Assembly (NCBI RefSeq): GCF_965641715.1
Contig: NZ_OZ282453.1
Length of the DNA stretch: 64,000 nucleotides
Origin: Escherichia coli
GTDB lineage: Bacteria; Pseudomonadota; Gammaproteobacteria; Enterobacterales; Enterobacteriaceae
Strand: one strand, 5' to 3'
Positions within the stretch are counted from its first letter, which is position 1. Each line of letters opens with the position of its first letter. Position numbers: made by a program. Of the stretch, positions 55,025-58,000 are shown piece after piece.

Positions 55025-58000
55025 TAATGATGTGCCACATCCGGCAGGGTATGCCGGATGTGGCGTATGCTGATAAGACGCGTCAGCGTCGCATCAGGCA
55101 ACCGGCTCGGACGTTGGATGTCGGATGCGGCGTAACCGCCTTATCCGACCTGGCGGTTGCAGCACTTCACAGCGGTGTAGGCCTGATAAGACGCGCCAGC
55201 GTCGCATCAGGCAACCGGCTCGGGCGTTAGATGTCGGATGCGGCGTAACCGCCTTATCCGACCTGGCGGTTGCAGCACTTCACAACGGTGTAGGCCTGAT
55301 AAGACGCGCCAGCGTCGCATCAGGCAACCGGCCAGGGCGTTAGATGTCGGATGCGGCGTAACCGCTTTATCCAACCTACGGGGTGCCGCACTTCACAGCA
55401 GTTTAGCGAACTACCGCGTTCTCAATCTTCTCTTCCGCCTTCCAGATGCGGTATTTCACATCCACATTGTCTGGCGTATACACCACGATCGGCAGCTTGC
55501 TGTTGTAACGCAGCATTCCGGTATCGCCGAGATATGCAGTGACAAATTTCTTCTCTTTCTTGCCATCCGGGCAGGCCATCATCGTGGAAACCGGCGAGCT
55601 AACTTTATCAAAGACATAATAATCATAGCCCCAGCCTTCCAGCGTTTTGCTTTCCAGCTTCCCACCGAGACGATGCAAATTGCAATCGACTTCCAGCGTC
55701 TGACCGATTAACAGTTCTACTTTCAGGGTAGATTCATCTTCTTGCGGGGTTAACTGAATCACCTGACGCTTCATGCCTTTTTCAGCTTGTGGATAAGGCG
55801 CGATTTTTTCCAGTGGCTGGACGCTCTCTGCCGCCCAGGCGGAAGTGGTGGCGAAAGCGGCAAACAATACTGCAGGTAGAATGGTCTTCATTTTTTGCTT
55901 TCCTTCTTCATTTATAGGTTTGCACCGATGATGTCGCTGAAGGTTAACATATTCATCAGATTTATTAATTTGCTTTATGAATAACTTAAAGAATATTAAG
56001 ACAATTTTACCTGCTCTTTTAGTGTTAAATTCTGATGAGAGAGCAAACCAGCAGAAATATCTCTGGTGAATTAATCGCTATATAAATATATTTATAACCA
56101 TTTGAAATGTGAGCAAAAGCCCGTTTTTGCCACGCTTCCCGCCACTCTTTTGATCCTGCTACAGGTTTTACCTCGATCGGGGTATGCATCTTTGACACAT
56201 CCTTTAATATCTTAGCGGCTATAAAAATGGCTTATTAATTATGCGGTTTATTTGGTCGCTCTCAATTTTCAGAGCGCGTTAATGATGGAAGGTCAATGTG
56301 AAGATTGATGCATCCCGTCGGGGCATACTCACTGGTCGCTGGCGCAAAGCCAGTAACGGTATCCGTCCGCCCTGGTCCGGTGATGAATCTCATTTTCTGA
56401 CCCATTGCACCCGCTGCGACGCCTGTATTAATGCTTGTGAAAACAACATCCTGCAACGCGGCGCGGGCGGCTATCCGAGCGTTAATTTCAAAAATAACGA
56501 GTGCAGCTTCTGTTACGCCTGCGCGCAGGCTTGCCCCGAATCGCTATTTTCTCCGCGCCACACCAGGGCCTGGGATTTGCAGTTCACCATTGGGGACGCG
56601 TGCCTGGCGTATCAGTCAGTTGAATGCCGCCGCTGTCAGGATAGCTGTGAGCCAATGGCAATTATCTTTCGCCCGACGCTCTCCGGGATCTACCAGCCGC
56701 AACTTAATAGCCAACTTTGCAACGGATGTGGAGCATGTGCAGCCAGCTGTCCGGTATCAGCCATAACTGCGGAGTATCTCCATGCACACTAACTGGCAAG
56801 TTTGCAGCCTGGTCGTGCAGGCCAAAAGCGAACGAATTTCAGACATCAGCACCCAACTGAACGCCTTTCCCGGCTGTGAAGTTGCTGTCAGCGACGCGCC
56901 GAGCGGTCAGTTGATTGTGGTGGTGGAAGCAGAAGACAGCGAAACGCTGATCCAAACCATTGAGTCAGTACGCAACGTAGAGGGCGTGCTGGCGGTGTCG
57001 CTGGTTTATCACCAGCAGGAAGAGCAAGGTGAGGAAACACCATGAAACTCAGTCGTCGTAGCTTTATGAAAGCTAACGCCGTTGCGGCCGCTGCGGCGGC
57101 TGCCGGTCTCAGCGTGCCGGGCGTTGCCCGCGCCGTTGTTGGTCAGCAGGAAGCCATTAAATGGGATAAAGCGCCGTGCCGTTTCTGCGGTACTGGTTGC
57201 GGCGTTCTGGTCGGAACGCAGCAGGGGCGTGTGGTGGCCTGTCAGGGCGACCCGGACGCACCGGTTAACCGTGGCCTGAACTGCATTAAGGGCTATTTCC
57301 TGCCCAAGATCATGTACGGTAAAGACCGTTTGACGCAGCCGCTGCTGCGTATGAAAAACGGTAAATATGACAAAGAAGGCGAATTTACCCCAATCACCTG
57401 GGATCAGGCCTTCGATGTGATGGAAGAGAAATTCAAAACCGCCCTGAAAGAAAAAGGGCCGGAATCGATCGGTATGTTCGGTTCTGGTCAGTGGACTATC
57501 TGGGAAGGTTATGCCGCGTCCAAACTGTTTAAAGCGGGCTTCCGTTCGAACAACATCGACCCGAACGCGCGTCACTGTATGGCGTCGGCAGTAGTTGGCT
57601 TTATGCGTACCTTTGGTATGGATGAGCCGATGGGCTGCTATGACGACATCGAGCAGGCTGACGCGTTTGTGCTGTGGGGCGCAAACATGGCGGAAATGCA
57701 CCCGATCCTCTGGTCGCGCATCACTAACCGTCGTCTCTCTAACCAGAACGTCACCGTGGCGGTGCTTTCTACCTACCAGCATCGTAGCTTCGAGCTGGCG
57801 GATAACGGCATCATCTTTACGCCGCAATCTGACCTGGTGATCCTGAACTACATCGCCAACTATATCATTCAAAACAATGCGATAAATCAGGACTTCTTTA
57901 GCAAACACGTTAACCTGCGCAAAGGTGCGACGGACATCGGCTACGGTTTACGTCCGACCCATCCGCTGGAAAAAGCAGCGAAGAATCCGGGTTCTGATGC

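What the first reader, a model, noticed from the sequence alone, without database searches (positions are those of the whole stretch)
55040..55400. Three tandem copies of a 113-bp REP-bearing unit between mqo and eco
Exact periodicity of 113 bp (anchors at 55071, 55184 and 55297) with near-identical units, each containing REP palindromes. Such BIME arrays are hotspots for copy-number change and can act as transcript stabilisers or DNA gyrase/IHF sites. The array produces three overlapping spurious ORFs with identical peptides in the ORF track.
Basis: seen in the sequence. Interest (0 to 1): 0.35.

Follow-up and report, generated by a model that had tools for sequence, protein, structure and literature searches.

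The report
Known REP repeat array, three copies
This is a three-copy version of a well-known E. coli palindromic repeat array (a BIME-2) between the ends of the mqo and eco genes; the laboratory strain's six-copy version is a mapped DNA gyrase cutting site, and copy number runs from one to seven among strains, so the feature is real but ordinary.

Summary
Positions 55064-55402 carry three head-to-tail 113-bp units with no indels and 92% matches. A 31-nt perfect hairpin precedes them, and together they fill the whole 375-bp spacer between convergent mqo (+) and eco (-). Each unit is a z2 REP, a 20-nt linker, an inverted y REP and a 23-nt linker, which is the architecture of a BIME-2. The same locus in E. 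coli K-12 has six units. It is listed as a BIME-2 with 11 mapped gyrase cleavage sites and "Espeli, Boccard 1997: 6 cuts" (PMC6379681, Table DS3). Across 120 sampled rows of complete E. coli genomes the array has 1 (63%), 3, 4, 5, 6 (19%) or 7 units, and some copies are interrupted by IS621. Other Enterobacteriaceae have a 28-135-bp spacer here, often with a bidirectional intrinsic terminator, which the window lacks. Both transcripts would end in very stable REP hairpins. The most likely roles are a gyrase site plus a bidirectional 3'-end former and RNA stabiliser, expanded by unequal recombination. The overlapping ORFs are spurious. Side finding: the array lies inside a roughly 3-kb tract imported from a non-coli Escherichia lineage. 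Already known; low interest.

The parts
53381..55027 (+). mqo, malate dehydrogenase (quinone), 548 aa; its stop codon TAA is at 55025-55027
   Evidence: ORF. Annotated as mqo under the matches in E. coli genomes.
55034..55064 (.). Leader hairpin: perfect 13-nt arms (GCCACATCCGGCA / TGCCGGATGTGGC) with a 5-nt loop, starting 6 nt after the mqo stop. The arms resemble the 5' half of a y REP. No T-run follows.
   Evidence: Inverted repeat I1. It folds in both transcript orientations. No terminator-like site was found. It is deleted (29 bp) in E. coli RMDEC465.
55064..55099 (+). Unit 1 z2 REP with a degenerate head (GTATG-C instead of GTAGGCC)
55100..55119 (.). Unit 1 short (S-type) linker, 20 nt, between the z2 loop-distal end and the y REP
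   Evidence: This linker occurs only at this locus within the window.
55120..55153 (-). Unit 1 y REP, inverted (iREP on the + strand); its head reads CTGG instead of CTAC
55154..55176 (.). Unit 1 head-to-head linker, 23 nt, lineage-specific variant CGGTTGCAGCACTTCACAGCGGT
   Evidence: The variant is shared with Escherichia sp. E1V33.
55177..55212 (+). Unit 2 z2 REP, GTAGGCCTGATAAGACGCGCCAGCGTCGCATCAGGC, identical to the z2 consensus used
   Evidence: 0 mismatches.
55213..55232 (.). Unit 2 S-type linker
55233..55266 (-). Unit 2 y REP (inverted), head CTGG
55267..55289 (.). Unit 2 head-to-head linker
55290..55325 (+). Unit 3 z2 REP, identical to the consensus
55326..55345 (.). Unit 3 S-type linker (CCAGGG variant, shared with E1V33 unit 1)
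55346..55379 (-). Unit 3 y REP (inverted) with an intact CTAC head
55380..55402 (.). Unit 3 terminal linker, which abuts the eco stop codon. The repeat similarity runs into the stop codon and the last eco codon (TRF end 55406).
55403..55891 (-). eco, ecotin, 162 aa; its stop codon is at 55403-55405 and the first REP foot lies 27 nt downstream of it on the - strand
55068..55376 (-). Three Rfam naRNA4 (RF02564) matches above the gathering score, one per unit: 55068-55150 (61.9 bits), 55180-55263 (77.4) and 55293-55376 (66.1)

Best explanation
The feature is a BIME-2, a type-2 bacterial interspersed mosaic element. It is a tandem array of [z2 REP - short linker - inverted y REP - linker] units and is the three-unit allele of the known eco/mqo BIME-2 of E. 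coli. Shown here: the anatomy, the location between two convergent 3' ends, the absence of an intrinsic terminator, the strong hairpin-forming potential of both strands, and the copy-number polymorphism. Shown by others for the six-unit K-12 ortholog: DNA gyrase cleaves it in vivo about once per unit, independently of transcription. Inferred for this allele: (i) At the DNA level each y REP offers a gyrase binding and cleavage site, so the array acts as a fixed gyrase loading point that removes the positive supercoils piling up between convergent mqo and eco. (ii) At the RNA level both mRNAs end in stacks of stable REP stem-loops that attenuate read-through (partly Rho-dependent) and block 3'-to-5' exonucleases. 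This would take over the job of the bidirectional intrinsic terminator that other Enterobacteriaceae carry in this spacer. (iii) The leader hairpin 6 nt after the mqo stop may also impede terminating ribosomes. (iv) Units are gained and lost by unequal recombination or slippage between 113-bp repeats, possibly helped by the REP-associated transposase TnpA-REP, which is encoded elsewhere.
For: Anatomy: the z2 and y REPs alternate in orientation with 20-nt and 23-nt linkers and an exact 113-bp period. This fits the published BIME-2 definition of z2 plus y, a short S linker, tandem copies, and copy number that varies among strains (PMC3333891). The Rfam model built on a z2+y unit matches each unit above its gathering score. 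The K-12 ortholog has 5.9 units of the same 113-bp consensus. It is listed as 'BIMEs2 ... [quoted passage not shown] The same paper reports that gyrase prefers y REPs and that the signal does not fall when transcription is blocked. RNA: the + strand transcript folds at -191.3 kcal/mol (z -6.8) and the - strand transcript at -182.1 kcal/mol (z -7.0), with every REP as its own hairpin. No sigma-70 promoter or intrinsic terminator lies in 54800-55700. In 70 non-Escherichia loci with the same convergent pair the spacer is usually 28-135 bp. In the 14 spacers I folded, most of the short ones hold one hairpin, several with an A-run/GC-stem/T-run architecture. REP325, also a z2/y array, acts as a partly Rho-dependent terminator and an upstream-mRNA stabiliser, and convergent pairs with REPs show higher expression (bioRxiv 10.64898/2026.03.23.713779). 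Turnover: arrays of 1, 3, 4, 5, 6 and 7 units were verified by sequence. Tallies come from 120 sampled rows. Adjacent identical units in K-12 (u2 = u4, u5 ~ u6) and a permuted unit order relative to E1V33 also point to turnover. Constraint: pairwise diversity is 0.031 in REP stems, 0.078 in loops and bulges, 0.136 in the S linker and 0.259 in the second linker. Stems are 98.4% paired, against 22-40% when the partner is slid.
Against: No transcript, cleavage or binding data exist for this strain, so every functional step for the three-unit allele is extrapolated from K-12 or from REP325. Stem pairs are almost invariant, so covariation says nothing either way (1 compensatory cell; 130 of 500 shuffles do as well). 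Genome-wide, terminal REPs were not associated with longer mRNA half-lives. Two thirds of sampled E. coli manage with a single unit, one strain lacks the leader hairpin and some carry an IS621 inside the array, so selection on array length is probably weak. Two of the three y REPs have CTGG instead of the conserved CTAC head. That should make them poor substrates for TnpA-REP, which needs GTAG. The Rfam hits and the published listing of the K-12 locus are the independent checks.
Confidence: 0.88

Rival explanations
1. The units are genes for a naRNA4-like nucleoid-associated small RNA that, with HU, condenses the chromosome.
For: All three units score above the Rfam RF02564 gathering threshold on the - strand at 61.9-77.4 bits. 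That strand is the one read by transcription continuing out of eco.
Against: The Rfam model is in effect a generic z2+y BIME-2 unit. It also hits three other REP clusters in this window. A 2026 study from groups including the original proposers reports that REP325/naRNA4 does not measurably compact the nucleoid, forms no stable HU-DNA-RNA ternary complex, and acts locally in its 3'UTR. No promoter-like site is present.
Confidence: 0.05
2. The array is a selfish or neutral repeat with no function for the cell. REPs were dispersed by the TnpA-REP (RAYT) transposase and then drifted in copy number.
For: Copy number ranges from 1 to 7 and is structured by lineage. The array tolerates loss of the leader hairpin and an IS621 insertion. 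An unrelated REP family has built its own array at the same spacer in another enterobacterial lineage (L058). The linkers evolve fast.
Against: At least one unit is present in every Escherichia genome examined, including E. albertii and E. whittamii. REP stems are about 4-8 times less diverse than the linkers. The K-12 array is among the most gyrase-cleaved BIME-2 in the part of the table I saw. Escherichia has no other terminator in this spacer. A selfish origin and a present-day role are not mutually exclusive.
Confidence: 0.3
3. The repeat encodes small proteins, namely the three overlapping + strand ORFs or the - strand ORFs.
For: ORFs of 67, 72 and 157 aa on the + strand, and of 37 and 55 aa on the - strand, are open across the units.
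Against: 113 is not a multiple of 3, so the same peptide is read in a different frame in each unit. The 157-aa ORF only continues antisense into eco. There is no Pfam match. Single-unit strains lack most of these ORFs. The composition is the arginine-rich translation typical of GC-rich palindromes.
Confidence: 0.01
4. The copy number in this assembly is an artefact: an array collapsed or expanded during assembly.
For: Tandem units that are 86-96% alike and span 339 bp exceed short-read lengths, and no reads are available here.
Against: The three units differ from one another at diagnostic positions, which is not what a collapse or a spurious duplication produces. Three-unit arrays occur in independent genome assemblies, namely E. 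coli ES5 (complete) and Escherichia sp. E1V33 (draft), and the locus spans in three further complete E. coli genomes fit three units (H125, H136 and H140; not checked by sequence).
Confidence: 0.05

Closest known systems
The eco/mqo BIME-2 of E. coli K-12 (MG1655/W3110)
   Same: Same locus, same flanking genes, same leader hairpin and the same 113-bp unit consensus. It is listed as a BIME-2 and cleaved by gyrase in vivo.
   Different: There are three units here instead of six. The second linker in units 1-2 is the variant CTGGCGGTTGCAG instead of CTACGGGGTGGAG, which also removes the CTAC head of those y REPs. The array came with a tract that is 98.5-99.9% identical to Escherichia sp. E1V33 rather than to E. 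coli.
REP325 / naRNA4 (yjdM-yjdN BIME-2 of E. coli; Rfam RF02564)
   Same: It is also a tandem array of z2+y units. The Rfam model matches each unit here above threshold. The documented local role, terminator plus mRNA stabiliser, is the one proposed here.
   Different: REP325 lies between tandem genes of one operon, whereas this array lies between convergent genes. The linkers differ, and nothing has been measured for this locus at the RNA level.
BIME-1 (z1 + y with a long L linker; RIB/RIP elements)
   Same: It is built from REPs in inverse orientation and sits in extragenic 3' regions.
   Different: BIME-1 is single-copy, uses z1 and carries an IHF site in the L linker. Here the partner of y is z2, the linker is 20 nt, the units are tandem, and no IHF consensus is present.
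REPtrons / REPINs mobilised by RAYT (TnpA-REP)
   Same: The same REP classes with the 5' GTAG recognised by TnpA-REP. That enzyme can recombine BIME substrates in vitro, which may explain copy-number change.
   Different: No tnpA-REP gene lies next to the array or anywhere in the syntenic 69 kb annotated in ES5. Two of the three y heads are mutated.
Bidirectional intrinsic terminators between convergent genes
   Same: Same position and presumed job. Other Enterobacteriaceae have exactly such a hairpin between mqo and eco. According to the 2026 preprint, nearly 40% of REPs between convergent genes lie within predicted bidirectional terminators.
   Different: There are no flanking A and T runs here, and no terminator-like site was detected.

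Membership tests
BIME-2 | Built from z2 and y REPs | tested here: met
   z2 is exact in units 2 and 3 and has a degenerate head in unit 1. y is present in all three units with 6 mismatches to the consensus used (the consensus strings were recalled from memory). Independent support comes from the Rfam z2+y model hits and from the K-12 ortholog being listed as BIMEs2.
BIME-2 | REP and inverted REP separated by a short S linker, not the long L linker | tested here: met
   A 20-nt linker sits between z2 and y in each unit.
BIME-2 | Multiple tandem copies joined by a second linker of type s, l or r | tested here: inconclusive
   Three tandem copies joined by a 23-nt linker are present.
BIME-2 | Conserved GTAG at the 5' foot of each REP (CTAC on the inverted copy) | tested here: inconclusive
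   GTAG is intact on z2 of units 2 and 3, and CTAC is intact on y of unit 3. The head is degenerate on z2 of unit 1 (GTATG) and on y of units 1 and 2 (CTGG).
BIME-2 | [quoted passage not shown] | tested here: met
   The array lies wholly within the 375-bp spacer between the stop codons of convergent mqo and eco.
BIME-2 | Copy number at a locus varies among strains | tested here: met
   Alleles of 1, 3, 4, 5, 6 and 7 units were found.
BIME-2 | Bound and cleaved by DNA gyrase in vivo | not testable with these tools
   This is shown for the six-unit K-12 ortholog (PMC6379681 Table DS3) but not for this allele.
BIME-1 | z1 + y with a long L linker carrying an IHF site, single copy | tested here: not met
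   The partner REP is z2, the linker is 20 nt, the units are tandem, and there is no WATCAANNNNTTR on either strand.
Rfam RF02564 naRNA4 | Covariance-model score at or above the gathering score of 59.5 bits | tested here: met
   Scores of 77.4, 66.1 and 61.9 bits on the - strand.
Rfam RF02564 naRNA4 | Processed ~80-nt RNA that binds HU and acts on the nucleoid | not testable with these tools
   No expression data are available. The function itself is disputed for the founding member.
REPtron | tnpA-REP (RAYT) gene flanked by the REPs/BIMEs | tested here: not met
   No such gene is annotated in the syntenic region of ES5 that covers the whole window.
Intrinsic (Rho-independent) terminator | GC-rich stem-loop followed by a T-run | tested here: not met
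   0 terminator-like sites in 54800-55700 on either strand.
CRISPR array | Identical short repeats separated by unique spacers, usually with cas genes | tested here: not met
   The sequences between the palindromes are themselves repeated in every unit, and the neighbours are mqo and eco.

The most novel reading that the evidence does not exclude
Array length at this locus could be a heritable, lineage-structured dial. Sampled genomes have one unit in most lineages and three to seven units in the K-12-like haplotype, with no two-unit allele in 120 sampled rows. The dial would set how much gyrase is parked between mqo and eco and how efficiently both convergent transcripts are ended and stabilised. 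In the Escherichia ancestor the array would have replaced the bidirectional intrinsic terminator kept by other Enterobacteriaceae. In this strain the dial setting would have been changed in one step, by importing a three-unit allele within a ~3-kb tract from a non-coli Escherichia lineage.
Probability: 0.15. Interest if true: 0.35.

Novelty: already known. Interest (0 to 1): 0.12.

Why it matters
It matters little beyond annotation. The locus should be labelled as a BIME-2/REP array, and the ORFs inside it should not be called as genes. The Rfam naRNA4 hits should be read as "z2+y REP unit", not as evidence of a nucleoid RNA. The census shows that this gyrase-targeted array differs sevenfold in length among E. 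coli strains and can move between Escherichia lineages by recombination. That makes natural alleles a ready-made series for testing whether REP number tunes gyrase loading or 3'-end formation.

Tried and rejected
1. Recombination junction inside the array. The mqo side is 98.5% identical to Escherichia sp. E1V33 and about 94% to E. coli, while the region beyond eco is 99% identical to E. coli, which suggested a crossover in the repeats. Site-by-site comparison puts the switch at 55538-55547, inside eco, so the whole array lies within the imported tract. Rejected.

2. Covariation support for the REP hairpins across 33 distinct units. The stems are nearly invariant, so the test is uninformative.

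3. IHF sites. There is no consensus match.

4. Coding potential of the ORFs. There is no Pfam hit, and the period is out of frame.

5. Promoter or intrinsic terminator in the spacer. None was found.

6. Literature specific to this locus. A full-text search for mqo/eco/REP/BIME found nothing in main texts. The locus appears only in a supplementary table.

7. Liang, Rudd and Deutscher 2015 (PMC4427526), for the list of REPs within 15 nt of a stop codon, is not held. The rule is cited second-hand from PMC12306157.

8. Supplementary figures of PMC3333891 showing copy-number variation are not held.

9. A full census of all 5,421 genomes was not possible, because the search tool lists at most 60 rows. 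Two evenly spaced samples were used instead.
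Full report
**Observation.** Tandem Repeats Finder reports a single array at 55070-55406 with period 113, 3.0 copies, 92% matches and no indels. The gap-free repeat finder places copies at 55070, 55183 and 55296, at 96% and 86% identity to the first. The longest exact direct repeat in the 1.1-kb neighbourhood is 55 nt, against at most 13 nt in 200 shuffles. The flanks are convergent genes: mqo at 53381-55027 (+) and eco at 55403-55891 (-). The three overlapping ORFs with a shared peptide are also there.

**Anatomy.** In the register that starts at the head of the first palindrome, the spacer has three parts:
- 6 nt after the mqo stop codon.
- A perfect 13+5+13 hairpin at 55034-55064.
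- Three 113-bp units at 55064-55402, which end exactly at the eco stop codon.

Each unit has four segments:
- A z2 REP of 36 nt. In units 2 and 3 it is identical to the z2 consensus I used; in unit 1 the head is degenerate.
- A 20-nt linker.
- An inverted y REP of 34 nt.
- A 23-nt linker.

There are two independent checks. First, Rfam's naRNA4 model, which is built on a z2+y unit, matches every unit above its gathering score on the minus strand at 61.9-77.4 bits. Second, the K-12 ortholog is listed as a BIME-2 in a published table. The layout fits the published definition of BIME-2: z2 and y REPs in inverse orientation, a short S linker, a second linker of type s, l or r, tandem copies, and copy number that varies among strains (PMC3333891). 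I could not decide whether the second linker is of the s, l or r type. There is no long L linker and no IHF consensus, so this is not a BIME-1.

**Context in other genomes.** The K-12 lineage has 5.9 units of the same consensus in a 714-bp spacer, and E. coli ES5 has three units. I searched 5,426 complete E. coli genomes with two flank-only queries and listed 60 evenly spaced rows each time. The locus spans correspond to spacers of about 149 + 113(n-1) bp, give or take a few bases:

| Units (n) | Rows out of 120 |
|---|---|
| 1 | 76 |
| 3 | 4 |
| 4 | 5 |
| 5 | 6 |
| 6 | 23 |
| 7 | 3 |
| IS-interrupted | 3 |

One representative of each class was checked by sequence. In that check, one four-unit array lacked the leader hairpin, and one array carried an IS621 inserted at GTAG|GCC of a z2 head. 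No two-unit allele appeared in either sample. Multi-unit alleles concentrate in genomes whose flanks are at least 99.2% identical to K-12.

**Context in other species.** A scan of one genome per species returned 80 loci. The convergent eco/mqo pair is widespread in Enterobacteriaceae. Outside Escherichia the spacer is usually 28-135 bp and lacks the z2 motif. In the 14 non-Escherichia spacers I folded, most of the short ones hold a single hairpin, in several cases an A-run/GC-stem/T-run bidirectional terminator. Escherichia species all carry z2/y arrays:
- E. albertii has 6 z2 anchors and 7 y REPs.
- E. whittamii has 2 z2 anchors plus an extra leading y REP.
- Escherichia sp. E1V33 has three units.
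- A divergent "E. coli" has three units with a 99-bp period.

An unrelated REP family has built its own tandem array in this spacer in another lineage (L058).

**What it does.** The strongest evidence is experimental but comes from the K-12 allele. Table DS3 of Sutormin et al. [quoted passage not shown] It records 11, 7, 2 and 5 gyrase cleavage sites under ciprofloxacin, rifampicin plus ciprofloxacin, microcin B17 and oxolinic acid. The paper adds that gyrase prefers y REPs and that the signal at REPs does not fall when transcription is blocked. Six cuts for six units suggests one site per unit, so three are expected here. That is an inference.

At the RNA level, both transcripts of the spacer fold far better than shuffles: -191.3 kcal/mol (z -6.8) for the + strand and -182.1 kcal/mol (z -7.0) for the - strand, with each REP as a separate hairpin. 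The spacer has no promoter-like or terminator-like site. A 2026 preprint shows that REP325, another z2/y array, is a partly Rho-dependent terminator and a stabiliser of the upstream mRNA. It also reports that convergent gene pairs with a REP are more highly expressed, and that the earlier nucleoid-compaction role of naRNA4 is not reproduced.

Taken together with the terminators in other genera, the likely picture is that the array serves as the 3'-end former and protector for both mqo and eco and as a fixed gyrase site between them. The leader hairpin starts 6 nt after the mqo stop. That is inside the 15-nt range in which REPs were reported to stall ribosomes (Liang et al. 2015, as cited in PMC12306157). 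The first REP after eco is 27 nt away, outside that range. This step is speculative.

**Evolutionary behaviour.** Across 33 distinct units from 12 arrays, pairwise diversity is 0.031 in REP stems, 0.078 in loops and bulges, 0.136 in the first linker and 0.259 in the second. Stems are 98.4% paired, but they vary too little for covariation to be informative. K-12 units repeat in adjacent pairs. The window's units correspond to those of E1V33 in a different order. Both patterns fit unit gain and loss by unequal recombination. TnpA-REP can recombine BIME substrates in vitro. However, no such gene lies in the syntenic 69 kb, and two of the three y heads here read CTGG instead of CTAC.

**Rivals.**
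- A trans-acting naRNA4-like RNA is unlikely (about 0.05) for the reasons given above.
- Protein coding is excluded in practice: the 113-bp period is out of frame, there is no Pfam hit, and single-unit strains lack most of the ORFs.
- A mis-assembled copy number cannot be ruled out without reads. It is unlikely, because the units differ at diagnostic sites and three-unit alleles exist in independent genome assemblies.
- Neutral selfish DNA remains partly viable for array length, but less so for the presence of at least one unit.

**Side finding.** The window is ordinary E. coli, 98-99.9% identical to strain ES5 over most of its length. The exception is a tract from about 52.4 kb to 55.54 kb. 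That tract is 98.5-99.9% identical to Escherichia sp. E1V33 and only 92.8-94.9% identical to any of 5,421 E. coli genomes. The right-hand switch lies at 55538-55547, inside eco. The whole array is therefore part of the imported tract, and its linker variant is the donor lineage's. My first idea, that the crossover lay in the repeats, was wrong.

**Verdict.** The feature is a known element at a known locus. Novelty: already known. Interest: low.

Noticed in passing
window 52400-55540: A tract of about 3.1 kb covering the yojI 3' end, mqo, the whole REP array and the last 138 nt of eco. It is 98.5-99.9% identical to Escherichia sp. E1V33, a separate GTDB species representative, but only 92.8-94.9% identical to all 5,421 complete E. 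coli genomes. From 55541 onward the window is 99.6% identical to E. coli ES5. It looks like an inter-lineage recombination import whose right end is at 55538-55547, inside eco.
   Followed up: yes
window 15000-17000, 47500-48250, 50000-51400: Three further blocks are much more diverged from E. coli ES5 than the rest of the window (82-89%, about 90% and about 88% identity). By synteny they cover a LysR regulator and an MFS transporter, ompC, and ada-alkB. ompC is known to be hypervariable. The other two were not examined.
   Followed up: partly
window 43082-43283: A second BIME-2: two y/z2 units with a 114-bp period between convergent rcsB and rcsC (by synteny with ES5). Rfam naRNA4 hits score 77.5 and 73.7 bits on the + strand.
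   Followed up: partly
window 19993-20160: Four alternating z2/y REPs with very short linkers in the nrdA-nrdB spacer; Rfam naRNA4 scores 63.4 bits. The K-12 counterpart is listed with 2-3 gyrase cleavage sites and 'Espeli, Boccard 1997: 2 cuts'. The nrdAB REP is also the published example of REP-mediated translational control.
   Followed up: partly
window 18510-18546 and 26921-27007: A single z2-like REP between yfaE and inaA, and a y/z2 pair between ubiG and yfaL. Like the other REP clusters in the window, both lie between gene 3' ends.
   Followed up: no
window 46941-47034 (-): MicF antisense sRNA, Rfam RF00033 at 116.8 bits, in its expected place upstream of ompC.
   Followed up: no
L085 (E. 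coli 2017-02-2CC, NZ_AP027764.1) 4579-6346: An IS621 (IS110 family) is inserted in the mqo-eco array exactly at GTAG|GCC of the fourth z2 REP. About 48 of 5,421 genomes have the two flanks more than 1.5 kb apart, possibly for the same reason. From my own knowledge, IS621 is known to target REPs.
   Followed up: partly
L086 (E. coli RMDEC465) 1000-1459: A four-unit array that lacks the leader hairpin. The 29-bp deletion lies between the two GATGTG repeats of the hairpin arms, so the hairpin is dispensable in at least one strain.
   Followed up: partly
L058 (Enterobacteriaceae bacterium MGYG-HGUT-00110) and L048 (Pseudocitrobacter faecalis), mqo-eco spacer: L058 has a 311-bp tandem array of a different REP family (GTAGCCCGGGCGAGGCGTTTACGCC...) in the same spacer. 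L048 has a z1-like and a y REP head to head with a long linker, which resembles a BIME-1. The spacer seems to be a recurrent landing site for REPs.
   Followed up: no
E. coli complete genomes, mqo-eco spacer: No two-unit allele appears among 120 sampled rows, although 1, 3, 4, 5, 6 and 7 units all occur. Multi-unit alleles cluster in genomes with K-12-like flanks. This could be a sampling effect or a consequence of how units are gained.
   Followed up: partly
L004 ('Escherichia coli' SCPM-O-B-8794, NZ_JAATUR010000027.1): This record is labelled E. coli but is only about 94% identical to the window and to K-12 at this locus. Its array has a 99-bp period with a short, different second linker (GGACACAAT). 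It is probably a separate Escherichia species under GTDB.
   Followed up: no
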